Shown: piece after piece, positions 6,350 through 64,000 of the stretch | Numbering within the stretch: position 1 is the stretch's first letter | How the letters are laid out: the number at the start of each line of letters is the position of its first letter | From: Neocallimastix sp. 'constans' | Taxonomy: Eukaryota | Direction: 5' to 3' | NCBI GenBank assembly: GCA_050613775.1 | Contig: JBODTK010000010.1 | Span: 620,001 to 684,000, forward strand | DNA: 64,000 bases | The notes under the pieces: generated by a model | Databases searched by the model: none | The model's input: only the letters and a program-made list of their open reading frames with translations | What the model was told of the DNA's origin: nothing | Position numbers and translations under genes: made by a program

Positions 6350-6591
6350 TTTTTTTTCATGGCTAATTATAAAAAAAAAAAAATAAAATAAAAAAAAAGC
6401 ATAAAAAAAAAAGCAAAAAAAGTTGCTATGAAGTAATAAATAAAATAAGATAAAATTTAAAGTTCTTTTCATTTATCTATGCATAGTATTGTCTTATATT
6501 TTAATATAATCTATAGATATATATACATAATTATTATCAAAACAAAATAATTAAAATTCAAAAATTATAAAATGAAAATAGTACAGCATTG

Positions 6592-6622
<31 letters not shown>

Positions 6623-6705
6623 TAAAATATATATAGTATAATATTAATTATATATATAAAAAAAAAATAAAAAATAAAAAAATAAAAAGAAATAGTATAG
6701 CACAG

Positions 6706-6753
<48 letters not shown>

Positions 6754-7168
6754 ATAAAATATATATAATACAATATTAATTATATATATATATATATAAA
6801 AGTAGTATAGTATATCTATTAATCACAATAATATTAATGTTAAATATACAATAAAAGTCATATATAAAAAAAAATCTATTAATAATAATTAATATTTTTA
6901 TGTAAATATTTTTTTTATTTATTTTAATCAAGAGAAATATAAAAATTGAATTTTTTTTTATGGTTAATTATAAAAAAATAAAAAAAAAAAAAAAAAGCAA
7001 AAAAAGTTGCTATAAAGTAATAAATAAAATAAGATAAAATTTAAAGTTCTTTTTTATTTATCTATGCATATAATATTGTCTTATATTTTAATTTAATCTA
7101 TAGATATATACATAATTATTATCAAAACAAAATAATTAAAAACCATGAAATAAAATAGTATATCATAG

Positions 7169-21790: not shown

Positions 21791-21871
21791 AAAAAAATTG
21801 AAAATACATATTAAATAAAAAATAAAAAATAAATATTTTCATATTTATTAATATTTATATTAAAAATTTTG

Positions 21872-28555: not shown

Positions 28556-29940
28556 TTATATTATTTTATTTAAATCAGTTAAACAATCAAACCACAAATT
28601 AATAATGTTATTTCTAATACATTTAGCATCAATTAATTTGGCTTCAATATTTTTGTAGCGTTCAATTAAGACACTGATTTCATTATTTTTATTTATTGCT
28701 CTTTTTTTTATTTTACAAATTCCTCTTAATTTTCTTTGATAATCATTATATGATAAATGTTCAAGTTCATTTAATTTATCTATTAATTCATAAAAAGATG
28801 GTTTGTTGGAAATAAATTATTTAAATAATTATTGAGTAATTCTGAGGTATTGTTTGTTATATGTTCCATATTATTATTATTATAGTAATTCCAAATTTTC
28901 ATATCATAACCAACTAAATATGTTTCATAAAAATATTCTAAAAATTTTAAAAATTTGACGATAATTATTTTTAATGGATTTAATTTTAATTATAACATAA
29001 ATATCAAATATGTATTCAGGATTTATAAATGGTAAATTTGAAATAGCTTTATAATAAATAAATATATTATTATCATTTTTTACTTCATTATAGCATAATT
29101 TATTTTTTTTTTAATTTCTAGTGATTTTTTATAATGTTAAATGCAATATTTAATATTTGTATTAGGAAACATTGTTTTTTTGACGCTTTAGATATGCCCT
29201 TTTCAAAATCACAATGCAAATTTTTTGGTTCAATTATAATATTATTGTTACATGTATTAGCATTTTTTTATAATTTTTCAAATAATATTTTATATGTTCC
29301 TTGTTCTTTATTTTTTAATATTGCAAAAGAAGTAGTGTAAAAACTATCTAATTCTTTACCATAAGTTCTTGTAATAAATATTTGATAACTAAATTTAGGG
29401 ACAATAAAAACTGTACCATCAACAAATATATCATCATTATATTCCCTAAATAACTTTGTTTGAAAAGGGGATTGAAAAATTATTAAATTAGAATTTTTGA
29501 ATATCATAAAATTTCCACCTCGCTTTGTTTTATAATATTCAGATTCACTTGGAATTTCAGCAAATGTTGTTGCATCGGATGATAGTATTTTATTAAAATT
29601 TCTTGTTATTTGGAATTTAATTGAATTATATTCTGTACATATAAGTCCTATTTCTTTAGAAATTTTATTATATAGGGGTTTTATTTTTACACCAAAAAGA
29701 ATTAAACTTTTTTCATTTCCATCTTTTAATTTTATGTTTCATTATAAATAGAGATACATCGTATTCTTTTTCAGGATGATTATGTGAACTATCATAATTT
29801 AATATTTCTTTCTTATCATTTAAAATAATAAAAGATTTACATTTATTTATTTTTTTTTTATATTCGGTATATTTATTAACTTTATAGAATTATCTTTTCA
29901 TGTATATGAAAAATTAAATTTATATTTTTTATTAATAATT
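28556..29940 (-). pseudogene. MULE transposase pseudogene (5'-truncated, with stops and frameshifts)
   Basis: The fragment MIFKNSNLIIFQSPFQTKLFREYNDDIFVDGT.. is nearly identical to ORF 45700. The C-terminus ..LWFDCLTDLNKII* resembles MULE A ..WFNCLIRLN. Confidence 0.9.
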
Positions 29941-45210: not shown

Positions 45211-46434
45211 TATCTAATATAAAATAAAATAAAATAAAATAAATATCTATTATTAATTTTTATTAAAGAATATTAAAGATCAATGTTTTTGAAATGAAAA
45301 TTTTTTACATTTTTATTATATTCAATTAATGATGTAGTTTAATATTATTGGTAGTTAATAATCTCATTAAATATAAATGATTTTTTGCTTTCTAACATAT
45401 ATAATTAATTAAAACATTTTATTTTTAAAAATAAATTGTCTTTAATATTCTTTAATAAAAAAAAATAATAAATATTTATTTTATTATATATACTTGTACT
45501 TTTATAATATTACATTTAATATTCATTTTATTTTATATACTTGTACTTATATTATTACATTCATTATTTATTTATTTATTTATTTATTTTACAAATAATT
45601 GAAAAACTAATTTTTCAAAATTAATATTAAGAATAATATTGGATAATTAATATAATAATTATAATTATATAATTAAAAAATATTTATAAAAATATAGAAA
45701 TGGAAGAAAATTTAATTATTGATATAAGTGAATCCAACAAAGGAAAAGAACAAATTATTATTAATAAAAAATATAAATTTAATTTTTCATATAAAAGAAA
45801 AGATAATTCCAAAGTGTATAAATGTACAGAATATAAAAAAATAAATAAACGTAAATCTTTTATTATTTTAAATGATAAGAAAGAAATATTAAATTATGAT
45901 AGTTCACATAATCATCCTGAAAATGAATACGATGTATCCCTATCTATAATGAAACATAAAATTAAAGATGGAATTGAAAAAAGTTCAATTCCTTTTGGTA
46001 TAAAAATAAAACCCCTATATAATAAAATTTCTAAAGAAATGGGACTTATATGTCCAGAATATAATTCAATTAAATCCCAAATATCAAGAAATTTAAATAA
46101 AAAACTACCATCCAATGTAACAACATTTGCTGAAATTCCAAGTGAATATGAATATTATAAAACAAAGCGAGGTGAAAATTTTATGATATTCAAAAATTCT
46201 AATTTAATAATTTTTCAATCCTCTTTTCAAGCAAAATTATTTAGGGAATATAATGATGATATATTTGTTGATGGTACATTTTTTATTGTCCCTAAATTTA
46301 GTTATCAAGTATTTATTACAAGAACTTATGCTAAAGAATTAGATAGTTTTTACACTACTTCTTTTGCAATATTAAAAAATAAAGAACAAGAAACATATAA
46401 AATGTTATTTGAAAAATTGAAAAAAAATGCTAAT

Positions 46435-46953
46435 TGTAACGAATTATAGAGTTAGTAAAATTGTTGTTGTAGTCTGGTGGTAATACACCATGACAATGAA
46501 GCCGAACTTCTTAGGTTCGACTCACACCCTTTCCCAATCTAAATTATTTTTAGTTAATTAATTAAATTATTGTAGAAAGTTCTAGAGTTTCTTTGGTTAA
46601 TATTATATAACTAAGTGAAACTAGAAAGTTCTATTTTAATAATTATTTTATCATTTTTCTATAAGATTCATTTTCTAGAAAGAAAACTTAATTTTTCGAA
46701 CTTTCGTTAATCTTAACTTTTTCCGAAACTGTTTTTCCGAAAAAGTATAAATAAGCGTGAATTTCTCAATAAAAAATAATTTTTCTTTGTGCTTTTATTA
46801 ACTAGTTAAAAGTAATTCGAAATATTACAATAATTAATTAATAATAAAAAATAATAATAAATTTTTATATTTTAATAAAAATATTAATAAAACAAATTTT
46901 TTAAGAAAACGAATTACTTATTAGTGTAGACCTATTGGGTGTAAACCGTTACA
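46435..46953 (+). mobile_element. Solo LTR, family L1 (519 bp), TSD CTAAT
   Basis: TGTAACG...CGTTACA termini. CTAAT at 46430-46434 and 46954-46958. TATAAATA at ~46746 and AATAAA at ~46768 suggest + is the sense strand. Confidence 0.92.
46463..46551 (+). promoter_or_regulatory. tRNA-like type-2 Pol III promoter in LTR L1: A box 46470-46480, B box 46514-46523, T5 at 46547-46551
   Basis: TAGTCTGGTGG and GGTTCGACTC are 44 nt apart, as T8 to G53 in an intronless tRNA. The T and acceptor stems do not pair, so this is not a tRNA gene. Confidence 0.75.
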
Positions 46954-47379
46954 CTAATACATGTAACAATAATATTAGAATTGAACCAAAAAATTTGCAT
47001 TGTGATTTTGAAAGGGCCATATCTAAAGCAGCAAAAACAATATTTCCTAATACAAATATTAAATATTGCATTTGGCATTATAAAAAATCACTAGAAATTA
47101 AAAAAAATAAATTATGCTATAATGAAGTAAAAAATAATAATAATATATTTATTTATTATAAAGCTATTTCAAATTTACCATTTATAAATCCTGAATACAT
47201 ATTTGATATTTACGTTATAATTAAAATTAAATCCATTAAAAATAATTATTGTCAATTTTTAAAATTTTTAGAATATTTTTATAAAACATATTTAATTGAT
47301 TATGATATGAAAATTTGGAATTATTATAATAATATGGAACATATAACAAACAATGCCTCAGAATCACTCAATAATTATT

Positions 47380-47885
47380 TGTAACGGTTTACACCCAATA
47401 GGTCTACACTAATAAGTAATTCGTTTTCTTAAAAAATTTGTTTTATTAATATTTTTTATTAAAATATAAAATTTATTATTATTTTTTATTATTAATTAGT
47501 TATTGTAATATTTCGAATTACTTTTAACTAGTTAATAAAAGCACCAAGAAAAAATATTTTTTTGTTGAGAAATTCACGCTTATTTATACTTTTTCGGAAA
47601 AACAGTTTCGGAAAAAGTTAAGATTAACGAAAGTTCGAAAAATTAAGTTTTCTTTCTAGAAAATGAATCTTATAGAAAAATGATAAAATAATTATTAAAA
47701 TAGAACTTTCTAGTTTCACTTAGTTATATAATATTAACCAAAGAAACTCTAGAACTTTCTACAATAATTTAATTAATTAACTAAAAATAATTTAGATTGG
47801 GAAAGGGTGTGAGTCGAACCTAAGAAGTTCGGCTTCATTGTCATGGCGTATTACCACCAGACTACAACAACAATTTTACTAACTC
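47380..47885 (-). mobile_element. Second L1 LTR, inverted, interrupted 14 nt from its far end by the stacked insertions
   Basis: Reverse complement of 46449-46953 with few differences. The terminal TATAATTCGTTACA is missing. Left flank TTATT. Confidence 0.93.
47811..47864 (-). promoter_or_regulatory. Pol III A box (47864-47854) and B box (47820-47811) in the inverted L1 copy
   Basis: CCACCAGACTA and GAGTCGAACC on +; the same motifs as 46470-46523. Confidence 0.75.
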
Positions 47886-48381
47886 TGATAAGAATGTACT
47901 AAATAATGCATTCTTAATTAAATCTACGATTTATTTCTAATACATTATGTGTACATTATTATTTTTGTACTTTAATAAATTTTTAAATCCAAAGATCAAA
48001 AATTAAATCAAAAATTATATTAAACTTTATATTTTTATATTAAATCTTATATTAATAGTAATATTTTTATATATTTAAAACTTATATTAGCAATATTAAT
48101 AATAAATCTTATTTTTTTTATATTAATAATGAAAATTTATATTAATAATATTTTTATATATTGATAATTAAAAATTTATATATTATATTTTAACTTTTTA
48201 TTATAAAATTTTATATCGAAATGTTTTATTTTATATTGAAAAATATTTTATTTTATTAAAAACCTTTATATTAGAATAGTATTTTTATTTTTATTTGAAT
48301 ATTTTAACAGATTGTAATAAAAATTATAGCCAATTAAATAAATTCTTATTAGTAATATTTTAGATATTTTTAAATAAATAA

Positions 48382-48433
<52 letters not shown>

Positions 48434-48737
48434 TTTTATTAATATTATAAATGTATTTTATTTATATTGTTATAATTAAATTTTATATAATTAATTATAA
48501 AAATCAATTTAAATTTAATAGTTTTTTAAAAAAAAAATAAATAAAATGTAATTTAGTGGCAAGAACAACTTTTATGCCTTGAAAAAAAGTATAAATAGTT
48601 GTAAATTTTGCTACTAATTTTTAAATATCATCAAATAAAATCAAATAAATTTATAAATAAAAATAATAAATAAATAAATAAAATTTGTGTTTCCTTACTT
48701 TATTTTTATTTAATTCTCTAAAACCTTAACATTTATA

Positions 48738-48755
48738 TGGTGGAGATATCGGGGA
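48738..48755 (+). promoter_or_regulatory. G1 primer-binding site, tRNA-Ala 3' end type
   Basis: TGGTGGAGATATCGGGGA, compared with the recalled complement of the tRNA-Ala 3' end TGGTGGAGATGCCGGGGA; 6 nt after the LTR. Confidence 0.8.
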
Positions 48756-49755
48756 ATTAAATAGAAATAATAGTAAATAACATAGATTTTTTTTTAATTT
48801 TTTTTTTATTTTATATTGATAAACAAGTAAGTCGTTAATCCTTTGATTAACCCATGGCGCTTGTTTGATATATATATATAAAAAAAATTTTTTTTAAATA
48901 AGTAAAATTAAGATTCTAAAAAAACAAATTTTGTAAAATTATAACAAGGAGCGGATAGAGCTCATACACAGTGTATTCTCAGATAGCAACAAATTAACTC
49001 TATTCATAGTAGGTTATTGAATAGTAGTTAATTTGGAGATTAATTGGAAAGTAGACGAAGGTATTTGGTTACCGACCCGGTAATAATAGTTCAACCTTCA
49101 ACGTTTCAACACACGAAGGTGCGGGTACTTTCCAAGCACTGGCGAATAAGGAGCTTACGTCACCGAAGGCGTAAGATTGTTTTTTTTATATAATTTTTTT
49201 TACTTTTCTTTGTGCTAGTTATAAGGCACTTTATTATATAAAGTATCAGACTTTGGCTAACTTCGCCATTTAAATTTTTTTTATTTTTTTTTATTACTGG
49301 TACTTTATTTGTTATATAATTCCTGTAATAGAATCTTAATTTACTTTGAAAATATTGTGTTTTTAGTTAATTTTTATTAGTTAATAAAAATATTATTGAA
49401 TACTTTTAAAATTTTTTTATTCCGTACATAGATTATCGGATTAAGTTTATCCTACATAGTAATTGGGCTAGTGGGCTCTGAACTGCTATATTTTATATTG
49501 AATATAGTAATCGTGGCACACGCGTGGCATGACACCATTAGGTAAGCTGCACGTCAGACAGTGTGTACTATCAGATTGTACGACAATAAAGATTATTTTT
49601 TTTTGTATTTAATAATTATAATTAATTAATAATTTTATTAGCTATAACAATACAATATTTATCGTTTAAAAAGAAAAATTTTTGAAAGGTGAAAATAACA
49701 AATAAAACTTTGCTTCTAAATTTATTACTACAAATATACTAAATTACAAAATTCA

Positions 49756-50110
49756 AGTGGTCGATAAAGATTTCGAACTTAAAATTATTCCATTAAGTTG
49801 TCGATAAAGATTTCGAACTTAAAATTATTCCATTAAGTTGTCGATAAAGATTTCGAACTTAAAATTATTCTATTAAGTTGTCGATAAAGATTTCGAACTT
49901 AAAATTATTCTATTAAGTTGTCGATAAAGATTTCGAACTTAAAATTATTCTATTAAGTTGTCGATAAAGACTTCGAACTTAAAATTATTCTATTAAGTTG
50001 TCGATAAAGATTTCGAACTTAAAATTATTCTTAATAAAGTAGTCGAAAAGAACCTCGTGCTTTATAATTTCTACTAAGTTGTCGATAAGGATTTCGAGCT
50101 TATATCTACT
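49756..50110 (+). repeat. 40-bp tandem repeat (7 copies plus 2 degenerate) in the G1 leader
   Basis: AAGTTGTCGATAAAGATTTCGAACTTAAAATTATTC(C/T)ATT. TCGATAAAGA recurs at 49761, 49801 ... 50001. Confidence 0.95.
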
Positions 50111-50259
50111 AAAGAAAGCAAATAAAATTATTATTTTCAAAAGTTACTAAAATATATTGTTTTAAAAATTGATTCGATATTAAATTACCTATTAAATTAC
50201 ATTTTGAAAGTTGGATTTCCCAAATTTATTTGTATTTAATCACCTCATATTTAGACAAA

Positions 50260-51171
50260 ATGTCCAAAGAAATAACTTTGAGCTTTAAAGAATTGAAAAA
50301 AGAATTGAGAGATATTGTGAAACTTAGCAAGGACAATTTAGATATTAAGTCCTGGGCTACTGAATTGAAACTTTGGATCAAGATACAAGGTATCACAGAT
50401 CCAGAAACAATATTTAATGCTTGTTTACTTACCAGCTCTGGTGAAGTACAACGCGTTATTGAAGATTTGGGAGAAGATAGTGATGATGAAAGTGATGATT
50501 CATCAGATGAAGAAGAAGAACATGATGAAGAAGAAAATGTTGATGATGATATTAAATTTCCTTCTCTTGGAAAAATTATTTCAAGTCTTGAAAATTTTTA
50601 CGGTATTAAAGAAGACCAAAATTTACTTCTTAAAGAACTTCGTGCAATGCGAATTAAAAGAAACGAAAAGATTAAAGACTTTAATGTAAGATATAGAACT
50701 TTGTACACTAAACTTGATAAAAAGAGAAGAAAGCGCATTGGTGTACTAGATTATATTGACTCTATTCAAAATAATTATGAAGCCTGGAAGAAATTATCCC
50801 TTAAAGATGATATAAGTATGGAGAAAGCTTTCAAAATTGCCGAGAAAGTAGATAGACTTTCTGTAAGGAACAATAATATTAATACCTATAATGTTAATAA
50901 TTCCCAGCATAATCAAAATAATCAAAACAGTACTACTTCAAGACTTTATCCTAAAAGAAGAAACGAAACTTTCCAAACAAGTCAAACAAATAATAAACTG
51001 AAACCTCAAGATATTATAGAAGAATCAACCCAGAAAATGAGAAATTTATCTGTTAAAACTTGCTTCTTCTGTAAGGAAGAAGGTCATTACTCATACTATT
51101 GCCCTCAATTAAATAAGATTATGGAAAAAAATAAAAAAGAAATATATTCCAAAAAGTCTTTAAACTTCTAA
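50260..51171 (+). CDS. Gypsy G1 Gag
   Basis: First ATG at 50260; capsid-like RNEKIKDFNVRY; CCHC CFFCKEEGHYSYYC. Confidence 0.92.
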   Translation: MSKEITLSFKELKKELRDIVKLSKDNLDIKSWATELKLWIKIQGITDPETIFNACLLTSSGEVQRVIEDLGEDSDDESDDSSDEEEEHDEEENVDDDIKFPSLGKIISSLENFYGIKEDQNLLLKELRAMRIKRNEKIKDFNVRYRTLYTKLDKKRRKRIGVLDYIDSIQNNYEAWKKLSLKDDISMEKAFKIAEKVDRLSVRNNNINTYNVNNSQHNQNNQNSTTSRLYPKRRNETFQTSQTNNKLKPQDIIEESTQKMRNLSVKTCFFCKEEGHYSYYCPQLNKIMEKNKKEIYSKKSLNF

Positions 51172-51211
51172 ATGGGAGCAGAAGCACTCCCAATGACAAA
51201 ACAATAGCTTC
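51159..51211 (+). promoter_or_regulatory. -1 programmed ribosomal frameshift signal (T TTA AAC plus H-type pseudoknot)
   Basis: The heptamer is in gag phase and the -1 frame is open into pol. Stems TGGGAG/CTCCCA and GAAGC/GCTTC. Confidence 0.85.
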
Positions 51212-54200
51212 ATTAAATAATTTACAAAATAATACTTTTACCAAGAATACCCCAATTGATAATAATTCCTTTAATAAAGAATCTGAAGAATCTGATTTTA
51301 GTGACACAACTGAAAGTGAGGATAATATCATTATAAATGCTATAAAAAGAAAAATGAATGATAATAACAGCGAAAAGGAAGAAAATAATTCCAAGAAAGT
51401 ACATAAAAGTTTAAAAGATAATCCACGTCCTTTCGCAACTCCTGCTTTAAGAAAGAAGAAAGAAAATGAGCTACATAATAAACCAAATAAAGTTTATAAA
51501 AATCAAATACTTCCTTCAATTTTAACTCAACCAAATATTAACAAAGAAAAACAAAAAGAAAAGGAATTAAGAAAAATAACAAGAGTAAGAGAAAGTAAAG
51601 AAGAAAACAACAATTATTCATCAAAAGGAAAGGAAAAAGTTGAATCTGAAGATATACTCGTAATCGATAATGAAATAGAAGATCTAGAAATGAATAAAGA
51701 TAATCAACAAAATAAAACTAATACTTTGGAAAAATTAATTTCAACAAAAACTAAAGAAACTAATAATGGAAATACTCAGTTAGTAAAAAGGAATATTAAA
51801 ATGATGAATAATAAAGAACCTTACAATATTATGGATGATTTAAATAATCTTAAATCCAGTATTACGATAGGTCAACTCTTGAATGCATGTCCGAAAATTC
51901 GTTCACAACTAACTCAAGGTTTAAAGTTAGAAAAATCTAAAATAATTGGAACTGTAGACAATGTAATAGCACGAACTTTATTAGTAAATAACTATGATCA
52001 TAGCTACATAAGTAAAAGTAATGAAGTAGCCGAAGAAGACTTAGCAATGGTTGATGCAAGTGTTGACGGAGTACTAGGAAAACTTTTAATTGATTCTTGT
52101 AGTAACCTAAGCATCGTTACTAAGCAGTATTTTGATAAATTACCTGGTGAATATGAAACAGTTGGAAAAAGTCGTGGAAGAATCCAACTAGCAACACAAG
52201 ATGAAGAATACTCGGAAGGAATTATTGTTCGATTACCAGTAAAAATTAATAATTATGAATTTAATGCGGACTTTAGAATTATTGAGAAAGAAGACTCTTT
52301 TTATGATATGTTAATAAACTTTAAAACTCAAATTGATCATTGTTTATTTATTCATCCGACCTTAAACAGTTTATGTAAACTTTTGTCAGAAAGTGAATAC
52401 GAAGAAATAGCTAAAATAAATAATCAATATTATGATGAAGAAAGTATAATTTGCACTATTAGAAAAGTTAAAGAAACGAATAATGAAAAGGAAATTATAA
52501 AGGAATTAACTCCAATGGAATTTATTGAGAGTGATGAATTTTTAAGTACCTTAAATAAAGATTATAAAGAACAAATTATTAAAATTCTCAAAGAAATGAT
52601 TGACATAGTTGCCACTTCAACAGAAGAACTAACTCCTTCTAAACTTTCACCACATAAGATCCGTTTAAAAGCAAATTCAAAGCCAGTAAAATTAAGAAGT
52701 TATAGGTTAACTAAATTAAAATCAGATATCTTAAAAGAAGAACTTACAAAACTTATTAAGAAAGGATTGATAGAACCATCCTGTTCAGAATGGTCATCTC
52801 CAGTAGTACTTATTCTAAAACACAATGGAAAGTGGCGCTTGTGCATTGACTACCGAAAAGTCAATGATATGACAGAAAAAGATTCTTATTCAGTTCCATA
52901 TATAGATGAAATTTTTGATAGTCTCGGAGGAGCTAAAATATTTACAACTCTTGATTTATTTTCTGGTTTTCACCAAATCTTAATGGATGAAGAAAGCGTA
53001 GAAGTAACCACTTTCACTACTAAGTTTGGAAATTATCAATTTAAGGTTATGCCTTTTGGACTTACTGGAGCTCCCTCAACCTTCCAAAGAGAAATGAATA
53101 AAATTTTATTCCCTTTTATTGGTGAATTTGTTTACGTATTTATTGATGATGTTTTGATCTATTCAAAAAGTATCGAAGAACATTTAATTCATATTAAACA
53201 AGTATTAGAAGTATTTAAAGAAAACAAGTTAAAAATTAATATTGAAAAGTGCCATTTTCTTCAAACTGAAGTTGATGTATTAGGTCACAAACTTACTACT
53301 AAAGGATTAAGTCCCATGGAAAGTAAAATAACAGCTATTAAGAAGTGGGAAGCCCCTTCATCAATTCATGAATTAAGATCATTTCTAGGAGCAGTAGGAT
53401 ATTATCGTGACTTTATTCCTAAATATGCTCAAATTACCTCACCTTTATGTAAATTATTGAAAAAGAATACTAAATATGAATGGAATAAAGAACAACAAGA
53501 AAGCTTTGAACTCCTAAAAGAAAAATTAATCAATGCACCTATTCTAAAATTTCCGTCATTTGACAAACCTTTTATCATTAGAACTGATGCTTCGTATAAT
53601 GGAATTGGTGGAGTTCTTTTACAAAAAGAAGAAGAAACCGGTAAGGAGCATCCAATACACTTTATAAGTAGAAGTTTAAAGAAAGCTGAAAAGAATTATG
53701 GTATTACCGATTTGGAAGGAACCGCTTTGTTTTACTGTATGACTAAATTTAAATCTTATATTGAAGGAAATCCACTACCTACAACTATTTACACAGATCA
53801 TAAACCATTAGTTGGTTTATTTAAGAATAAAGAACCTTTGAATGCAAGGCAAACAAGATGGTGTCTAACCGCTAGTATGCTTGGAATTAATATAAAATAT
53901 GAATCAGGCAAAAAGAATGTGTTAGCTGATGCTCTTTCAAGAATGAAAAGTAAGGAAGAGAGAAAGATATTATTAACAAAAATTACTGATGGAAATAATG
54001 AAGAATTATTATCTAAAGTTATAAAGGAATTTATTAATGAAAAGTTTACTGTTATTGATGGTGAAGATTACTTTATCGACAATGGAAATTATAGAAAATT
54101 AATAACGGACGAAAATGAAAGGTTTAAATTAATTTTAGAAGCTCATAATATTGGCCACGAAGGATATTACAAAACATATCAAAGACTTAAGAAAAACTTT

Positions 54201-55169
54201 TATTGGAATCATATGATTAAAGATATCAAAAGAATTGTTAGTAATTGTGAAAAATGCCAGTTAAATCGTCCTCAACCATATCCAGAACCAACCGAAAACC
54301 ATCCAACTAAAGTGGAGGGTCCCTTTGTGCATTTAGGATTAGATATTATAGGACCGTTACCAAAAACAAGAAATAATAATCAATATATTATAGTAACTGT
54401 TGATTACTTTACCAAATGGGTTGAAGCCGAACCCACTGAAAACATAACTTCCTCTGATATAATTAAATTTTTAATAAACGTTTTTGCAAGACATGGTGTA
54501 CCTCAAGTTATTACTACTGATAATGGAGTCCAATTCACTTCTGATATGACTAAAATCTTTCTTGATCTTTATGATGTATATGTTAAATTTGTAGCTACTT
54601 ACCACCCTGAATCAAATGGCCTTACTGAAAATCGAAATAAAGAAATTGGAAAATTACTCCGTTTATTAGGAAGGAAAAATCAAGATTGGGATGAAGTTTT
54701 ACCTTCTGCTTTATGGGCACTTCGAACTACCAAAAATACAGCTACTGGACATTCTAGTTTTGAATTAGTATATGGAAGAGAAGACCAACAGCCTTATGAT
54801 ATAGCCATAAGAACAATTGAAAATGCAGGTAAATCATATGATGAAATCTTAATGGAAAAATTTGTTCGTCATTATCAATGGACTAGAGAAGCATGCGAAA
54901 ATGTGAAGAATGCTAACAAGTATTGGGCAACAAGACGAGAAGAACAAATAAGTATGAAAAAAGGAAAAGAATTAAAGGCTGGTGATCTTGTTCTTGTTAG
55001 AAACTTTAGCCGCACTAAGCTAGAACCATATTACAATGGACCATTTAAAATTTTAAAAATTCAATTCAACACGGCAACCCTAATCGATCAGAAGACTGGA
55101 AAGCAACTCGATAGGAATGTTCACTTTAAAAATTTAGTAAAGTTTAACTCCGCTTACAGAGAAGCTTGA
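51159..55169 (+). CDS. Gypsy G1 Pol (PR-RT-RNase H-IN), probably expressed as a Gag-Pol fusion
   Basis: The frame is open from 51159. Protease LIDSCS, RT FIDD, RNase H TDAS, integrase H..GH..CEKC, LDIIGP/TDNG/NGLTE, C-terminal GPF motif. No chromodomain visible. Confidence 0.95.
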   Translation, partial: FKLLNGSRSTPNDKTIASLNNLQNNTFTKNTPIDNNSFNKESEESDFSDTTESEDNIIINAIKRKMNDNNSEKEENNSKKVHKSLKDNPRPFATPALRKKKENELHNKPNKVYKNQILPSILTQPNINKEKQKEKELRKITRVRESKEENNNYSSKGKEKVESEDILVIDNEIEDLEMNKDNQQNKTNTLEKLISTKTKETNNGNTQLVKRNIKMMNNKEPYNIMDDLNNLKSSITIGQLLNACPKIRSQLTQGLKLEKSKIIGTVDNVIARTLLVNNYDHSYISKSNEVAEEDLAMVDASVDGVLGKLLIDSCSNLSIVTKQYFDKLPGEYETVGKSRGRIQLATQDEEYSEGIIVRLPVKINNYEFNADFRIIEKEDSFYDMLINFKTQIDHCLFIHPTLNSLCKLLSESEYEEIAKINNQYYDEESIICTIRKVKETNNEKEIIKELTPMEFIESDEFLSTLNKDYKEQIIKILKEMIDIVATSTEELTPSKLSPHKIRLKANSKPVKLRSYRLTKLKSDILKEELTKLIKKGLIEPSCSEWSSPVVLILKHNGKWRLCIDYRKVNDMTEKDSYSVPYIDEIFDSLGGAKIFTTLDLFSGFHQILMDEESVEVTTFTTKFGNYQFKVMPFGLTGAPSTFQREMNKILFPFIGEFVYVFIDDVLIYSKSIEEHLIHIKQVLEVFKENKLKINIEKCHFLQTEVDVLGHKLTTKGLSPMESKITAIKKWEAPSSIHELRSFLGAVGYYRDFIPKYAQITSPLCKLLKKNTKYEWNKEQQESFELLKEKLINAPILKFPSFDKPFIIRTDASYNGIGGVLLQKEEETGKEHPIHFISRSLKKAEKNYGITDLEGTALFYCMTKFKSYIEGNPLPTTIYTDHKPLVGLFKNKEPLNARQTRWCLTASMLGINIKYESGKKNVLADALSRMKSKEERKILLTKITDGNNEELLSKVIKEFINEKFTVIDGEDYFIDNGNYRKLITDENERFKLILEAHNIGHEGYYKTYQRLKKNFYWNHMIKDIKRIVSNCEKCQLNRPQPYPEPTENHPTKVEGPFVHLGLDIIGPLPKTRNNNQYIIVTVDYFTKWVEAEPTENITSSDIIKFLINVFARHGVPQVITTDNGVQFTSDMTKIFLDLYDVYVKFVATYHPESNGLTENRNKEIGKLLRLLGRKNQDWDEVLPSALWALRTTKNTATGHSSFELVYGREDQQPYDIAIRTIENAGKSYDEILMEKFVRHYQWTREACENVKNANKYWATRREEQISMKKGKELKAGDLVLVRNFSRTKLEPYYNGPFKILKIQFNTATLIDQKTGKQLDRNVHFKNLVKFNSAYREA

Positions 55170-55683
55170 GTCTTCGTCGGGGCATCTTGATAAGAATGTA
55201 CTAAATAATGCATTCTTAATTAAATCTACGATTTATTTCTAATACATTATGTGTACATTATTATTTTTGTACTTTAATAAATTTTTAAATCCAAAGATCA
55301 AAAATTAAATCAAAAATTATATTAAACTTTATATTTTTATATTAAATCTTATATTAATAGTAATATTTTTATATATTTAAAACTTATATTAGCAATATTA
55401 ATAATAAATCTTATTTTTTTTATATTAATAATGAAAATTTATATTAATAATATTTTTATATATTGATAATTAAAAATTTATATATTATATTTTAACTTTT
55501 TATTATAAAATTTTATATCGAAATGTTTTATTTTATATTGAAAAATATTTTATTTTATTAAAAACCTTTATATTAGAATAGTATTTTTATTTTTATTTGA
55601 ATATTTTAACAGATTGTAATAAAAATTATAGCCAATTAAATAAATTCTTATTAGTAATATTTTAGATATTTTTAAATAAATAA

Positions 55684-55735
<52 letters not shown>

Positions 55736-56038
55736 TTTTATTAATATTATAAATGTATTTTATTTATATTGTTATAATTAAATTTTATATAATTAATTAT
55801 AAAAATCAATTTAAATTTAATAGTTTTTTAAAAAAAAAAATAAATAAAATGTAATTTAGTGGCAAGAACAACTTTTATGCCTTGAAAAAAAGTATAAATA
55901 GTTGTAAATTTTGCTACTAATTTTTAAATATCATCAAATAAAATCAAATAAATTTATAAATAAAAATAATAAATAAATAAATAAAATTTGTGTTTCCTTA
56001 CTTTATTTTTATTTAATTCTCTAAAACCTTAACAACTC

Positions 56039-58329
56039 TGATACGTGACCACTATAAATATGATATTTAGGTAGATTCTTTAGGTTAAAGAAATACTTAA
56101 ATATTATTGGTCAATAATAATTTTATAATAATATATATAATTTTAGAATAATAATTATTAAACGGAGAATTCTTTTATTTATAAGTTTATACTTATGATA
56201 AATTAATTCATATAAATAGCTATTTTATATTTTATTTTAGTATAGTTAAAAAGAGATATTATATATATTTGAGATAATTAATTATAATATTTATATAAGA
56301 GAGTAATAATAATAATTTATGTAATAATTAATAATTAATAATAAATAAAGAGAACATTAAAAAGATATATTTATTACTTTATTTTATATTATTGTATGTG
56401 TTATTTCTAATTAATATTAGAATATATTATTTTGTCATAATTCCTTATTGTCATTGCCCATAAATAAATATTAATTTAGATACATAAATAAAATACCGTA
56501 TCAAATTTGGTGGAGAATCCGGGCGTGACAATAGCAAAATAATATGAAAATAATATTAATAAAATAATACATCTACATAATAAATATATAATAAATATTA
56601 TTTAGTATATATATAAAAAGAATTTAATTAGTTTAAATTAGTTATTAATAATTATAATAGTAATAGTTATAATAATATTAAATTGAATTAGAAAATTGTA
56701 ATAAAAAATATATATAAGAATAAATAAAATTTTTAAAGATGAATGTTTTTAAGATATTAAGTACGTTACCATTATTAGAAAATTATAATAATGATATCAA
56801 TAAATGGATAGAAGAATTAACCGAGTCATTTGAATTATGGGATATAAAAGAACAAGAAAGAAGATTTATTTTATGTAAAGAATGTGTAAATAAAGAAATT
56901 AGGTATGTTCTTGATGAATTAAAGGAAGAAAAGAATCAGGTTCCTAGCTTAAAAGAAATAAAAATAGCCTTAGAAGAATATCTAGAAATAACACCAAGCG
57001 TGAAATATTGGAACTTAATTAATTTGAAAATTAATTCAAATGAATCAATTAGTAATTTTAATTATAAATACTTAAGAAAATATAATGATATTGATAATAA
57101 TATAAAGAAATTAATTACTGTTAATAATTATGTTAATTCAATTAAGTCTAGAATATATCCTTGTTTAAGAATATTAGAAGAAGAAATCGAAGATATAAAC
57201 GAAGCTCTCAAGTATGCAGAAAAAGTTGAAAGAATTGAAAAGAAATTAAATTTAAATTTAAATAATATTTATAAGAATAATAATCAAAAATGGAATAATA
57301 ATAATTTCAAAATGAATAAATTAAATAGTAATATAAACAATAAGAATAATAAAATTATGTGCTTTAGATGCTATGAGTTAGGTCATAAAGCTGTTAATTG
57401 TAGACACACATTTAAAGAATTAGCGGAATTAGAAAGAACTGGAATTTTGGAAATAAATAAAAGAAGAAATTTTATACCTGGAATCCATAATAATTATAAT
57501 TATAAATTTAATTTATATGATAGAAATAAAAACTATAATAATTATTATCGTAGAAATTATAATTTAAATAGTAATATTACTGAAAATTATCATAATATGA
57601 CTAGTTTTGGTAAAAAGCATAATGTGAATAGAGAAATTTATAGAAATAATTATAATTTAAATAATAATTTTGGTAATAATAATTATAATAATTTAAATAA
57701 TTATCTATATAAAAGTAATTATGATTTAAATAAAAATTTTGGTACCAATAACAATAACAGTAATTTAAATGAGAATATAAATAAAATAAAATGTAGAATC
57801 AGCAATAATCAGGGTATAAATTATAATAAGCAAGGAAATAAAGATGTTAATATTGGAAATGAAATTAATTTCAACAATAATTTAAATACTAATTGTGTAG
57901 AAAATACGTTTAATTCAAATATAAATAATATTCAGGATAATATAATTGGAAATAATATAAATAAAAACAATAATGGATATAGTAGAAACATAAATTCATT
58001 AGGAAATAATAATAGTTTTAATAATAACAATACTAATAACAATACTAATTATACAAATAACGAAAATAAAAATGTTAATAATGTTATTGAAATAAATTAT
58101 AATAAAAACAATAATAACAATAATAACAGTAATAATAATAATAATCATAAAAAAAAAAAAAAAAAAAATAACAATAGAAAAAAAAATAAATAAATAAATA
58201 ATTTAATTATGATGAAGTATTAATAAATAAATAATTATATATATATAACAATAATTTAAATTAAATTAATTCGAAATTTCAAGATTTCGAATTTCAAAAA
58301 TTAAAATAATCATTAATTCAAAAATTTAA

Positions 58330-58370
<41 letters not shown>

Positions 58371-58935
58371 CCAATAATTAAATTTTAATAAACAAAAAAA
58401 AAAAAAAAAAATTTTATTATATTATTATTGAGACTTCAGGGGACGAAGTCTAATTTAAGTGGGGGCGTCTTGATACGTGACCACTATAAATATGATATTT
58501 AGGTAGATTCTTTAGGTTAAAGAAATACTTAAATATTATTGGTCAATAATAATTTTATAATAATATATATAATTTTAGAATAATAATTATTAAACGGAGA
58601 ATTCTTTTATTTATAAGTTTATACTTATGATAAATTAATTCATATAAATAGCTATTTTATATTTTATTTTAGTATAGTTAAAAAGAGATATTATATATAT
58701 TTGAGATAATTAATTATAATATTTATATAAGAGAGTAATAATAATAATTTATGTAATAATTAATAATTAATAATAAATAAAGAGAACATTAAAAAGATAT
58801 ATTTATTACTTTATTTTATATTATTGTATGTGTTATTTCTAATTAATATTAGAATATATTATTTTGTCATAATTCCTTATTGTCATTGCCCATAAATAAA
58901 TATTAATTTAGATACATAAATAAAATACCGTATCA
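56039..58935 (+). mobile_element. Non-autonomous gag-only Gypsy-type element G2; LTRs 56039-56503 and 58471-58935 (465 bp); TSD ACTC
   Basis: TGATACG..CGTATCA LTRs, identical by eye. PBS TGGTGGAGAATCCGGGC (56508-56524, tRNA-Ala type) and GGGGGCGTCT before the 3' LTR. No pol. Confidence 0.93.
56739..58193 (+). CDS. G2 Gag-like protein with CCHC knuckle and Asn-rich tail
   Basis: Aligns by eye with G1 Gag (DINKW/DIKSW, NESISNFNYKY/NEKIKDFNVRY, AEKVERI/AEKVDRL); CFRCYELGHKAVNC. Confidence 0.88.
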   Translation: MNVFKILSTLPLLENYNNDINKWIEELTESFELWDIKEQERRFILCKECVNKEIRYVLDELKEEKNQVPSLKEIKIALEEYLEITPSVKYWNLINLKINSNESISNFNYKYLRKYNDIDNNIKKLITVNNYVNSIKSRIYPCLRILEEEIEDINEALKYAEKVERIEKKLNLNLNNIYKNNNQKWNNNNFKMNKLNSNINNKNNKIMCFRCYELGHKAVNCRHTFKELAELERTGILEINKRRNFIPGIHNNYNYKFNLYDRNKNYNNYYRRNYNLNSNITENYHNMTSFGKKHNVNREIYRNNYNLNNNFGNNNYNNLNNYLYKSNYDLNKNFGTNNNNSNLNENINKIKCRISNNQGINYNKQGNKDVNIGNEINFNNNLNTNCVENTFNSNINNIQDNIIGNNINKNNNGYSRNINSLGNNNSFNNNNTNNNTNYTNNENKNVNNVIEINYNKNNNNNNNSNNNNNHKKKKKKNNNRKKNK

Positions 58936-58989
58936 ACTCTGGTAAAGAATGAATTAATAACCTTTATTTTATTATTAATAATTCTTTAC

Positions 58990-60561
58990 TGTCAAAGTTT
59001 TTAGATAATTTGGTCTTAACGATTAGGTCAAGATGCCAAATTATAGTAATTTATTAATAATTAAATTTTATTCTTATTTAAAACATATTGTTATTAGTAA
59101 ATTTTATAATTAAGTTTTTATCTAAAATATAAATTTTATTTAATCTTAATAATATTTTATTACATTATTATTTTATATAATTATTACTATAATTTAAATT
59201 ACAATAATCCTACAAAGGATTAATCAAAGAATTTAAACATGTATTTATATAAAATAATTAATTATTAAAATATTAATTATTAATATGAATATGTAAATAA
59301 TATTAATATAAGTTTGATATTGATAATATAAAGTTAGATAATAATATAAATATTTAATATAAATAAAATATAAGAATTAAATATTGCTAAATATTATAAT
59401 TTATAATTAAAATATAATATGTAGAAATTAATTTAATATGACAATCACGTGTTTACATTATTTAATATATATTAAATTCAATATGTTAATAATATTTAGT
59501 AATTAGTTGGCCTAGACTAATTCCTAAATATTTTAATAAAGTTAATTTAATAATAATTATTATATTATTATTATTTATTAATATTGAAATTCAAATAACT
59601 GAATTATCGAAATTGAAATTGAATTGAAATTCAGTTATTATCTTAACAATGCCCTTCCACAAAAATCGGATTCCAGACGATTTGTGTAACATTGTTAAAA
59701 AAAATTTTGTTAAGTTATTAAAAAAAAATTTTTTAATTTTTTAAAGTTAATTAGGAATTAAAAGGTCACTTGAATCTTTAGGAGAAGACCTTTTAAGTGA
59801 CAATTTCATGAAATTTGAAATTTGTCAAAATTTGTTAAAATTAAAATTTTATTATAAAATTCAATGTTTTTAAATATGATGGTACCAACATTATTATATA
59901 TTTCCTTGTAAAATTTTGAAATTGAAATTTTGAAATTTAATTGAAATTAACATTTCAATTTTTACCATTAACTTTGAAATTATTGAAAATTTTAAAAATA
60001 TAGTAAATAATAAATATATTAAAACTTAAAATTACTATTAAATAGTTGAATACATAATTTTTATTAAATTTTGAAATTTCGTAATGTGAAATTTTTAAAT
60101 GTCGAAATTTGAAATTATAAAATTTATAATTTCTATTTTTCTAAATTTTGAAATTGTAATTGAAAATTTATCAATTTAACTATTGAATATATCATAATAT
60201 TCAATTTAGTTTATTATTAACGATAATAATTATGTAAGCGTCCTTATCATAATTATTTTATTATCAAAGAATATTATAGAGAAAAGCGTCCTTTTCAATA
60301 TAATATTAAACAAATTTTGATTGATCTATTTGGAAATGTTGAAAATGTTAAGATTATAAATTATACTTTATTATTAAATTTTAACTAGTATTAATTTAAT
60401 AACTATATAAATCTTAAAATTTTAATTATAGCTCTTGTAGAGAATATTAATTAAATGTAAAAGAAGGGAAAAGTTGATTGTTTTCAACTGTTTAATTATA
60501 ATATAATTAAGGTTTTTGATTTTAAAGAATAATTATTAATCCCAAATATTGATTCCTACTG

Positions 60562-60629
<68 letters not shown>

Positions 60630-60682
60630 GAATTGTTTTTGTATTTATTGTAATTAAATATATAATTTTATTAAATATAACT

Positions 60683-60726
<44 letters not shown>

Positions 60727-62363
60727 CATTATAAAAAAAACAATATAACTGTAAAGATTTGGATATTTAAATTAAAGAAATAGAAATTTTAGTTTGATAT
60801 AATTATTTATCATAGAATACAAAAAATGTAAATTATAATTGAATATATCTTTAGTGCAGTATTAATTAAAATAGTAAGTCAATTCTTTGAACTGAATGAA
60901 TTTTTTATTCCCATTACTGGTGGGGAAAAATCAGATTCATGTGAATTTGCTCTTATTCCTCTTTTAATTTGAAAAAAAATAAATATTAATTTTTGAAAAG
61001 AAAATACTGCAACTAATAGATTTGGATTGAATTTATTATATGTATTTTTATTATATGATTTCTTTAATTTTAATTTTGGTTTAGTTTTCATTTTATTATT
61101 TCCACTAACTTTATTAGACTTTATTTTTTCTTTTTTGTGATTGCTACCTTTAATTGTATTTGATTCTTCGTTAGAGTCATTTTTACTGTGTCTTGTAGTT
61201 TCTTCGTAGGATTCCTTGTCAGGAAGTTCAGATTTTGTGATGAGATTTATGTCATTTTTATTAATTAATTCATTATTATTTTTATTAATGTTGTTTTCAT
61301 TAATATTAGCTTCTTTCTGTCTTTTATTAGAAATTTCTTCTTTTAAAAATATCATGGACTTATCAACCTGTTCAAAATTAGAAATGTTCTGATTAATTTG
61401 TAATATTAATCTTTCAATTTGATATAAAGCTAACTTAGCACTTCTGAAGTCTATTGATCCGTTTAGCATTGATTTTGTTACAACAACTTTCTGAGAGTAG
61501 ACGACCTGTTTTGCTTTGTTCATCTCTGATATCTTCGATTTTATTTCCTTCTTCATCTTGTGAATAAATTCATTATATTCTTCAATTGTAACAAATTCTT
61601 CTTTTGGTAGCTTTAATATATTATTACTTGTTAATGATATATTAGGATCGGATCTAATTGTTGTGGACATCTTGAGGTAATCGATAGATTATTGGTAGGA
61701 TTATTGTCAAAGTTTTTAGATAATTTGGTCTTAACGATTAGGTCAAGATGCCAAATTATAGTAATTTATTAATAATTAAATTTTATTCTTATTTAAAACA
61801 TATTGTTATTAGTAAATTTTATAATTAAGTTTTTATCTAAAATATAAATTTTATTTAATCTTAATAATATTTTATTACATTATTATTTTATATAATTATT
61901 ACTATAATTTAAATTACAATAATCCTACAAAGGATTAATCAAAGAATTTAAACATGTATTTATATAAAATAATTAATTATTAAAATATTAATTATTAATA
62001 TGAATATGTAAATAATATTAATATAAGTTTGATATTGATAATATAAAGTTAGATAATAATATAAATATTTAATATAAATAAAATATAAGAATTAAATATT
62101 GCTAAATATTATAATTTATAATTAAAATATAATATGTAGAAATTAATTTAATATGACAATCACGTGTTTACATTATTTAATATATATTAAATTCAATATG
62201 TTAATAATATTTAGTAATTAGTTGGCCTAGACTAATTCCTAAATATTTTAATAAAGTTAATTTAATAATAATTATTATATTATTATTATTTATTAATATT
62301 GAAATTCAAATAACTGAATTATCGAAATTGAAATTGAATTGAAATTCAGTTATTATCTTAACA
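58990..62363 (-). mobile_element. Non-autonomous LTR element nested in G3; LTRs 58990-59648 and 61705-62363 (659 bp); TSD TTTAC
   Basis: TG..CA direct repeats. TTTAC at 58985-58989 and 62364-62368. Purine tract GTGGAAGGGCAT on - before the 3' LTR. No RT. Confidence 0.93.
60879..61670 (-). CDS. Coiled-coil-like, Lys/Asn-rich ORF of the nested LTR element (function unknown)
   Basis: ATG about 35 nt after the 5' LTR, 263 aa. No recognisable Gag knuckle or enzyme motifs. Confidence 0.6.
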   Translation of the reverse strand: MSTTIRSDPNISLTSNNILKLPKEEFVTIEEYNEFIHKMKKEIKSKISEMNKAKQVVYSQKVVVTKSMLNGSIDFRSAKLALYQIERLILQINQNISNFEQVDKSMIFLKEEISNKRQKEANINENNINKNNNELINKNDINLITKSELPDKESYEETTRHSKNDSNEESNTIKGSNHKKEKIKSNKVSGNNKMKTKPKLKLKKSYNKNTYNKFNPNLLVAVFSFQKLIFIFFQIKRGIRANSHESDFSPPVMGIKNSFSSKN

Positions 62364-63349
62364 TTTACTAAATTGTACTTTCCTATATTCTTCATAACCT
62401 AAACCTCATTGTAAATTTAATTTATTTTGATATAAATTAATTTTAATTTGTAAATAATGTAAATAAATTTTAATTAATCACTTTATTGTTATATTATTAA
62501 ATATATGTATATATTAAAATACAATTGTAAATATTAAAATTATACTTTTAAGATACTAAATTATTAAAACTATTAATTAAATATTATTATAAAAATTATT
62601 ATAAAATTATTAAAATTATTAATTAAATATTATTCTAAAAATTATTATAAATTATTAATATTATAAAATTATTAAAATTATTAAATATTATTATAAAAAT
62701 TTATATATTATAACTATTAAATATTATTATAAAATTATTAAGATTATTAATTAAATTTATTATTAAAAATTATTATTAAAAATTTTACTTATTATAAAAA
62801 TTATTATTTAAATATTATCAAATTTATTAATTAAATATTATAAAAATTTTATTTTATTTTGAAAATAATTACAAGTATTATTTAAAATAATTAAAGATTA
62901 TTAAATTTATTATATTAATCTTTAAAAACAATTTATTTAACTTAAAAATATCAAAGAAAATAGTAAAAACTATTTTCTATATATTTATTTTATAATTATT
63001 TTTAATTAAATTATATTTGAATATTATATTATTATATTTATAAAAATTAAAACAAAAATGAATTATTGATATAAAATTAATTCAATAATTCTATAAAATT
63101 ACTTAAATTATAAACAATTAATTATACTTTAAATTTATAAAAAAATATAAATATTGTAACAATTTCTTAAAAAAAATTAAATATGTGTACTTTAAATAAA
63201 AAGTTTTATATTAATAAAAAAAAAATAAATAAATAACTTTTAAAAAAAGAATTTTTTTTTTTTTTTATTTAAAATCAAAGCAGGGTAATACCCGTCCCCC
63301 CCTGCTTGATTTTAAATATCTAAGTGTCAACCCCGAGTCTACCAACTCT

Positions 63350-64000
63350 TGTTACGATACAAATAATAAATAAAAAATAAATAAAAAATTAAATAAACTA
63401 TTAAGATTAATTAATAAATAAATAAGAATAAATACTAAAGTATTAAAATATATAATAAGGAAATTAAATAATGTATAAATAATTAAATTATTTAAAATAA
63501 TGTATTAATTGTATTTATTTAATATTGTAATAGTAAACAATTAGATATTTTATTATAAATAATTAAAATTATATTTATTATTATTTTATATTTTTATTAT
63601 AAAATTTTTATTATACTTTATTATATTTTTATTATTATCTTATATTAAATATTATATTAAAATTATATTTTATTATATTTTATTATTATAAAATTATTAT
63701 ATTTTTGTTATTATATTTTTATTATATTTTATATTTTTATTTTTATTTTTACTCCAATCAAATAAATGTTTTAATGATATAAAAAGAACAAAGTAAAACA
63801 ATACTTTAGTTCTTCCTCTTCTTTCAACTTTATTTTTATATTTTTCTTTTAATTTTTCAAGAATGAAATAGTAAATATTTAGTATTAGTATTAATAAATA
63901 ATTAAATAAATAATTATATAAAATTAAATTGTTCTCTAGTTTAATTGATTAGTTTTGTTTTTGTGTTTTATTATAGTTAAAGATAAAAATAATTTTGGTT
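63350..64000. mobile_element. Probable start of a fourth LTR-type insertion (G4), running off the window
   Basis: After ACTC+T the expected L1 remainder ATAATTCGTTACA is replaced by TGTTACG.. and unrelated AT-rich sequence. Confidence 0.55.

What the first reader, a model, noticed from the sequence alone, without database searches (positions are those of the whole stretch)
47882..64000. The stack may be a polarised chronological record of insertions
If the site is set by distance from the A/B boxes, each new element lands next to the promoter and pushes older ones away, as spacers do at a CRISPR leader. The visible states fit: G1 is intact, G2 is complete, and G3 is reduced to a probable solo LTR that has itself been invaded. 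G1 and G2 share orientation, diverging from the Pol III unit. G1 and G2 cannot be ranked by LTR identity because both pairs are essentially identical.
Basis: inference. Interest (0 to 1): 0.7.

Follow-up and report, generated by a model that had tools for sequence, protein, structure and literature searches.

The report
Retrotransposons stacked at a mobile promoter
In a gut-fungus genome, four different jumping genes sit nose-to-tail at one insertion site beside a tRNA-like promoter that is itself carried by another jumping element; they likely arrived one after another with the newest nearest the promoter, as shown for tRNA-targeting elements elsewhere, but that order is untested here.

Summary
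The stack is real. Three gypsy-type LTR elements (G1 intact; G2 gag-only; G3 a probable solo LTR holding a nested element X) and the start of a probable fourth (G4) are joined by the same 4-bp target duplication, ACTC. The site lies 11-14 nt upstream of a tRNA-like A/B-box unit inside a Helenus-like LTR (P), and an empty copy of the site lies 0.9 kb away. Relatives place the window in anaerobic gut fungi (Neocallimastix). Polarity is a good mechanistic inference: the geometry matches Ty3/Tj1, only the proximal junction has a B box, and Dictyostelium TRE5-A has been shown to insert between a tRNA gene and an older copy. It is not shown here. All LTR pairs (G1, G2, X) have zero substitutions, the four identical duplications carry no order, and one decayed member lying last among three gives a likelihood ratio of at most 3. 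G2 is not complete: it lacks pol. No second stack or allele could be obtained. The polarity principle is known. What my searches did not find described is a multi-family stack at a mobile, multicopy Pol III-type LTR.

The parts
45700..47379 (+). MULE transposase copy, host of both P insertions
   Evidence: Pfam FLYWCH and MULE; the 94%-identical copy at 28823-29939 is uninterrupted at both sites
46435..46953 (+). P1: 519-bp solo LTR (TG...CA, 5-bp TSD CTAAT) with A/B boxes near its 5' end; EMPTY copy of the target site
47380..47885 (-). P2: second P LTR, inverted, 98.2% identical to P1; interrupted by the stack 14 nt from its 5' terminus (the rest would lie beyond the window)
47811..47820 (-). 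B box (GGTTCGACTC)
   Evidence: the 10-nt form occurs only in P1 and P2 in the window
47854..47864 (-). A-box-like motif, +1 G at 47871; has G where the published consensus has A at position 7
   Evidence: consensus from PMC5391098
47882..47885 (+). Target duplication ACTC, junction J1 (promoter-proximal)
47886..56034 (+). G1: intact gypsy-type element; LTRs 47886-48731 and 55188-56034; gag 50260-51171; pol 51135-55169 in the -1 frame with a TTTAAAC heptamer shared with relatives; no chromodomain detected
56035..56038 (+). ACTC, junction J2
56039..58935 (+). G2: gag-only (non-autonomous) element of the same clade; LTRs 56039-56503 and 58471-58935 identical; ORF 56739-58193
58936..58939 (+). 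ACTC, junction J3
58940..63344 (.). G3: probable solo LTR of 1026 bp (58940-58989 plus 62369-63344)
58990..62363 (-). X: unrelated non-autonomous LTR element nested in G3; LTRs 659/659 identical; 5-bp TSD TTTAC; one 263-aa ORF
63345..63349 (+). ACTC plus T, junction J4 (one base offset)
63350..64000 (+). G4: probable LTR of a fourth element, cut by the window end
   Evidence: its start matches the LTR start of relative L011; no similarity to the other LTRs

Best explanation
Four LTR retrotransposons of one gypsy clade sit at a single duplicated 4-bp site just upstream of a tRNA-like promoter inside a mobile LTR, and they likely inserted one at a time, guided by the Pol III transcription factors predicted to bind that promoter, so that the newest would lie nearest the promoter (inferred order G4, G3, G2, G1). 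Shown: the repeated use of one site, its position 11-14 nt upstream of the +1 G, and the absence of a B box at the other junctions. Inferred: (1) P's A/B boxes bind TFIIIC and so position TFIIIB; (2) the G1-clade integrase is tethered to that complex as in Ty3; (3) each insertion restores ACTC on the promoter side and leaves the internal promoter intact, so the next insertion lands at J1 and pushes earlier ones outward; (4) G2 is moved in trans by a G1-like pol. The record would be lossy, because LTR-LTR recombination deletes members and exchange between stacks could reshuffle them.
For: Four ACTC junctions and an empty P1 site. The LTRs share no detectable sequence, so homologous recombination or concatemers cannot explain the joins. 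ACTC-type words alone do not suffice: of 20 AACTCT in the window, 4 are junctions, 1 is the empty P1 site and 15 are other places. The A+B pattern occurs 2 times in the window (P1, P2) and 0 times in 100 Markov shuffles; the pattern was written from P, so this overstates significance. A B box in a given 30-nt span has p about 6e-4. An exact B box lies near 1 of 4 junctions. The distance fits Tj1 and Ty3. New-between-promoter-and-old insertion was shown experimentally for TRE5-A, which also targets A/B boxes lacking a tRNA gene. All members share clade-type termini, PPT or PBS with gut-fungal relatives. The only visibly reduced member is the most distal of the three whole ones.
Against: No age ranking is possible: 0 substitutions in the LTR pairs of G1, G2 and X, with 95% upper bounds of 0.35%, 0.65% and 0.46%. 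No second stack or allele was seen. P1, an almost identical target, is empty. The A box departs from the published consensus at position 7, and a second, stringent A-box match starts immediately at the site. G1's integrase lacks the chromodomain that acts as the ruler in Ty3 and makes a 4-bp TSD rather than 5 bp. Three insertions at the same base, with no scatter, suggest a sequence preference as well. Single G1-LTR variants lie on contigs about 3 times deeper than the P contigs in run X9 (5608 and 7075 against 1931-2026; depth is no copy number), so G1 probably has targets other than P, and whether these are Pol III genes is unknown.
Confidence: 0.62

Rival explanations
1. Unpolarised hotspot: the integrases recognise a local sequence or structure (A-ACTC-T next to an LTR end) that is recreated at every junction, so new elements can enter at any junction and position says nothing about age.
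For: Every junction reads A-ACTC-T because LTRs end in CA and begin with T. There is no scatter among G1-G3. In Drosophila, P-element tandems form by double insertion at preferred target sequences. The Pol III promoter's activity is untested.
Against: 15 other AACTCT words in the window are not insertion junctions. The first insertion fell at the Ty3/Tj1-like distance from an A/B unit, p about 6e-4 for the B box alone. Four non-homologous LTR families would all need the same preference.
Confidence: 0.2
2. Pol III-guided insertion, but the present order has been scrambled or assembled by recombination or gene conversion among the many copies of P, G1 and G2, so this stack is not a faithful chronology.
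For: P, G1, G2 and X are multicopy. G3 shows that LTR recombination acts here. P1 and P2 share a base (47719) that no laid contig carried in 4 of 4 runs, which hints at local copying or conversion.
Against: The junction words are all the P-type ACTC; exchange with stacks at other Pol III genes would bring in other 4-mers. Nothing in the window shows a chimeric LTR (both pairs identical).
Confidence: 0.12
3. Reverse polarity: something on the distal side (P's LTR terminus or the last element's end) sets the site, so the stack grows outward and G1 is the oldest.
For: LTR identity does not exclude it.
Against: No exact B box lies within 150 nt on either side of J2-J4. The sister MULE copy, which stands in for the distal host sequence, has no B box. 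The intact element is proximal and the solo LTR distal.
Confidence: 0.06

Closest known systems
TRE5-A tandems at Dictyostelium tRNA genes (PMC5391098, passages)
   Same: Fixed distance from an A/B-box promoter; a new copy inserts between the tRNA gene and the resident copy (46 bp upstream of LysCUU-2; 91 of 98 occupied genes re-targeted); A/B boxes without a tRNA gene are also targets.
   Different: TRE5-A is a non-LTR element inserting about 47 bp upstream, in same-family tandems; here there are several LTR families at -11 to -14, in a mobile LTR.
Ty3 (S. cerevisiae), Tj1 (S. japonicus), DGLT-A (Dictyostelium) (PMC5911963, 10.1101/2021.07.27.453949, PMC4600332, PMC5006619; passages)
   Same: Gypsy-type pol order; insertion next to a Pol III start. 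G1's integrase aligns to Ty3 residues 1108-1444 (E 1e-22). Like DGLT-A it has no chromodomain.
   Different: TSD 4 bp against 5 bp for Ty3 and Tj1; no Ty3-type chromodomain; divergent from the Pol III unit, whereas Tj1 is co-directional; Pol III targeting is not shown genome-wide for this clade.
Helenus / TRIMp3 (PMC10886601; abstract, passages, sections 3.5, Discussion, figures and tables)
   Same: An LTR holding a tRNA-like A/B-box sequence that does not fold as a tRNA; fungal copies and solo LTRs have 5-bp TSDs.
   Different: Only solo or partial P LTRs were seen, so the internal PBS/PPT is untested; the 519-bp LTR also has a TATA-like word shared with G1; the paper's Table 1 lists no chytrid-like gut fungus and the sections read do not describe Helenus as an insertion target.
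Double insertion of TEs at one target site in Drosophila (10.1101/158386, passages)
   Same: Head-to-tail elements separated by the preserved TSD.
   Different: Same-family dimers, driven by target sequence, with no stated polarity.
CRISPR leader-end spacer acquisition, integron attI (recalled, no call)
   Same: A regenerated site next to a fixed protein-bound landmark gives newest-first order.
   Different: An analogy only: no shared machinery and no host function shown.

Membership tests
Ty3/gypsy LTR retrotransposon (G1) | LTRs TG...CA, PBS, PPT, TSD, pol order PR-RT-RH-IN | tested here: met
Pol III-targeting gypsy elements (Ty3/Tj1/DGLT-A type) | Insertion within about 5-30 nt upstream of the +1 of an A/B-box unit | tested here: met
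   TSD at -11 to -14; one locus only
Pol III-targeting gypsy elements (Ty3/Tj1/DGLT-A type) | Most copies in the genome lie at Pol III genes | not testable with these tools
   no genome; relatives' contigs are collapsed and lack flanks, 0 tRNA genes in the 19 of 77 loci scanned
Ty3 proper | 5-bp TSD | tested here: not met
   4-bp ACTC for G1-G3; Ty3 5 bp
Ty3 proper | C-terminal chromodomain of integrase | tested here: not met
   no Pfam chromo hit; G1 ends 7 residues after the part aligned to Ty3 residue 1444 of 1547
Pol III-targeting gypsy elements (Ty3/Tj1/DGLT-A type) | Integrase contact with TFIIIB/TFIIIC | not testable with these tools
Helenus/TRIMp3 (P) | tRNA-like A and B boxes inside the LTR, no functional cloverleaf | tested here: met
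   GGTTC and YGG present, TRGCY only partly; ARAGORN 0, Rfam 0 at gathering and 2 chance hits, fold z -0.9 to -1.6
Helenus/TRIMp3 (P) | 5-bp TSD in fungi | tested here: met
   CTAAT around P1, confirmed against the empty MULE copy
Helenus/TRIMp3 (P) | Short non-coding interior with PBS and PPT; total 311-1263 bp | not testable with these tools
   only a solo LTR and a partial LTR are in the window; no P relative found
Polarised chronological array | A single regenerated entry site next to a fixed landmark | tested here: met
   exact B box at 1 of 4 junctions; landmark function inferred
Polarised chronological array | Age increases with distance from the landmark | tested here: inconclusive
   0 substitutions in all LTR pairs; state order gives a likelihood ratio of at most 3
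Polarised chronological array | Polymorphic members are proximal across strains and stacks | not testable with these tools
   searches gave no second allele or stack

The most novel reading that the evidence does not exclude
P is a self-propagating landing pad: a Helenus-like LTR family of perhaps tens of near-identical copies that plants Pol III promoters around the genome, each collecting a leader-polarised, multi-family array of one gut-fungal gypsy clade. The arrays would be a readable stratigraphy of retrotransposon bursts below the resolution of LTR clocks, and a case of one retroelement family parasitising the promoter of another.
Probability: 0.3. Interest if true: 0.72.

Novelty: new variant of a known kind. 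Interest (0 to 1): 0.45.

Why it matters
If the order is chronological and such stacks are common, they would rank retrotransposon families in time where LTR divergence is zero, and would serve as strain markers in anaerobic gut fungi. It would also extend Pol III-guided integration to an early-diverging fungal lineage, through an integrase without Ty3's chromodomain. A site-specific integrase system could be useful in fungi that have few genetic tools. The ordering principle itself is already established for TRE5-A.

Tried and rejected
Own genome: none held. tRNA or Rfam identity for the Pol III unit: ARAGORN 0 genes, Rfam 0 at gathering, 2 chance matches, unremarkable folding; a true tRNA gene was rejected. 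Other P copies: viral contigs 0; metagenome contigs 1 hit, L001, with no blastn similarity to the window, rejected as chance; 5 of 5 MAG handles gave only short AT-rich matches outside the A/B head. G1 relatives with flanks: 0 loci; 4 distant loci; 73 loci, of which 12 (L006-L016, L062) are AT-rich gut-fungal-type contigs with collapsed LTRs and no host flanks. I examined 19 of 77 loci and 17 loci; the rest are distant (29-43% identity) and were not read. Reads: (4 of 24 listed runs, P2-G1 junction) listed only the PPT-side loose end at 47886 and hid 772 further loose ends, so neighbours of the site could not be counted, meant to count joints between all stack members, returned no data. Order from junction sequence: rejected, because proximal and distal entry both give the observed ACTC/ACTCT pattern. 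Order from LTR identity: no resolution. The non-standard protease motif (DSC) as damage in G1: rejected, since relatives share it. G2's lack of pol as a family trait: 4 of 13 aligned cluster members extend to G2 residue 450 or beyond, but an autonomous relative also has a long gag (457-aa frame), so this is unresolved. Literature searches that found no description of this system: (listings and abstract starts only); PMC3317150 was not held. Supplements were not read; Helenus Table S1 may bear on P's novelty.
Full report
Setting. The window is about 17% G+C and consists mostly of transposons and simple repeats. G1 pol has close relatives in gut metagenomes and in Orpinomyces sp.. G2's gag is 89-99% identical to 13 aligned members of a 101-member cluster named from Neocallimastix species, and X's ORF is 99% identical to Neocallimastix proteins. 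The host is therefore an anaerobic gut fungus. No whole genome is held.

Anatomy. A MULE transposase copy is interrupted twice by a 519-bp LTR, P, in opposite orientations. P1 (46435-46953) is a solo LTR with TSD CTAAT, confirmed against an uninterrupted sister MULE. P2 (47380-47885) is 98.2% identical to P1 and is cut 14 nt from its 5' end by the stack. The stack reads ACTC-G1-ACTC-G2-ACTC-G3-ACTC-T-G4, and P1 shows the empty site. G1 is intact, with open gag and pol, a -1 frameshift heptamer shared with relatives, and a protease motif shared with relatives. G2 has identical LTRs, a PBS, a PPT and gag but no pol, apart from a remnant of the integrase end. G1 and G2 share a PBS word, which I recall as tRNA-Ala type, and their gags are distantly related (22%, E 4e-5). 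G3 is a 1026-bp TG...CA unit without ORF, PBS or repeat, so probably a solo LTR, with X inside. G4 begins with the same 8 bases as the LTR of relative L011, and G3's and G2's ends resemble those of L011, L096 and L014. All four therefore look like one clade, yet their LTRs have no blastn similarity to each other.

Is it repeated insertion? Yes. The same 4-mer at three further junctions has a chance of about 2e-9. Non-homologous LTRs exclude shared-LTR tandems, and a preserved TSD between elements is the signature of double insertion at one site (10.1101/158386, passages).

What sets the site? P carries, on its sense strand, a +1 G (47871), an A-box-like word (47864-47854), an exact B box (47820-47811) and a T5 run (47787-47783). 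It is not a tRNA but resembles the tRNA-like promoter in Helenus LTRs (PMC10886601; abstract, section 3.5, Discussion, tables), a lead that came from earlier notes. The TSD lies at -11 to -14. The Tj1 tRNA rows seen lie at -5 to -11 (PMC4600332, passages). Ty3 integrates at -6 to -2 from a start site about 10 nt upstream of the mature end. Against this reading: the A box has G at the consensus A of position 7, a stringent A-box match begins right at the site (41 such matches in the window), G1 lacks Ty3's chromodomain, and the TSD is 4 bp.

Does polarity follow? If a Pol III complex sets the site, yes. An exact B box lies within 150 nt of J1 only (1 of 4 junctions; the others have at best 2 mismatches), and the six B-box words in the window include none near J2-J4. 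The internal promoter survives each insertion and ACTC is restored at J1. The same behaviour was shown experimentally for TRE5-A, which inserted 46 bp upstream of a tRNA gene already carrying a copy, re-targeted 91 of 98 occupied genes, and also used A/B boxes with no tRNA gene (PMC5391098, passages). The idea is therefore sound and not new in principle.

Is it shown here? No. The LTR pairs of G1, G2 and X have no substitutions (upper bounds 0.35-0.65%). The TSD copies are identical, and entry at a proximal or a distal junction gives the same letters, including G4's one-base offset. One reduced member lying last among three is expected one time in three by chance. G3's invasion by X is itself recent. 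P2 differs from P1 at 5 substitutions and 3 gaps. In run X1 three of those P2 alleles are carried by 24-47% of the laid depth and one (47847) by 0.6%; the fifth lies in a stretch the tool skipped. P2 thus looks young, and the whole stack probably formed within a window too short for these clocks.

Copy-number hints (4 of 24 listed runs laid; the tool warns that depth is no copy number). P lies on single contigs of depth 1931-2026 in X9 and 829-1101 in X6, against about 36-48 and 18-25 for the shallowest contigs shown, which suggests some tens of near-identical copies. Single G1-LTR variants reach 5608-7075 in X9. G1 probably outnumbers P and must have other targets; whether these are tRNA genes is unknown. 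P1 being empty while P2 holds at least four insertions has a chance of 1 in 8 if the two were equal targets, so it is not decisive.

What remains open. No second stack, allele or flank was obtained, so neither genome-wide Pol III targeting nor the age gradient has been tested.

Verdict. The chronological reading is likely (about 0.6) by mechanism and precedent, not by data from this locus. Seven literature searches (listings only) found no account of Pol III-targeted retrotransposons in gut fungi or of a Helenus-like LTR acting as a landing pad; the library lacks most subscription journals. I rate it a new variant of a known kind, interest 0.45.

Noticed in passing
window 58990-62363 (-): X has no TGG-type PBS; the 10 nt after its 5' LTR are complementary to position 436 of its own LTR, which suggests Tf1-like self-priming (label recalled; self-priming mentioned). 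Its ORF has no Pfam hit but belongs to a 39-member cluster.
   Followed up: partly
window 30265-35483 (-): Intact copia element with identical 260-bp LTRs, TSD TATAT, an LTR end that is not CA, and a non-TGG PBS that looks like an internal tRNA-Lys half-primer site (recalled), inserted in a second MULE copy.
   Followed up: partly
window 47719 and the matching base of P1: P1 and P2 share a C where all laid depth in 4 of 4 runs shows T: sister copies, local hopping or conversion, or none of the runs is the source strain.
   Followed up: no
window 46741, 47593, 48585, 55888: The P and G1 LTRs share a 13-nt TATA-like word, so P may have a Pol II promoter as well as A/B boxes.
   Followed up: no
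window 46435-47885: Two P LTRs inserted 426 bp apart in inverted orientation in the same MULE copy, forming a long inverted repeat.
   Followed up: partly
L006-L016, L062: Several rumen bacterial and archaeal MAGs in the genome collection contain gut-fungal-type gypsy contigs (up to 13 matches in one MAG), most likely binning contamination.
   Followed up: partly
window 49755-50102: 8.7 copies of a 40-bp unit in G1's 5' untranslated region.
   Followed up: no
window 63270-63320: GC-rich hairpin near one end of G3; G3's orientation is unresolved.
   Followed up: no
window 36724-37551 and 39600-40421: Duplicated gene for a roughly 205-aa protein with an N-terminal hydrophobic helix and no Pfam hit, 93.5% identical copies.
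   Followed up: no
window 21833-23320: An uninterrupted MULE transposase ORF of about 480 aa, a candidate autonomous copy.
   Followed up: no
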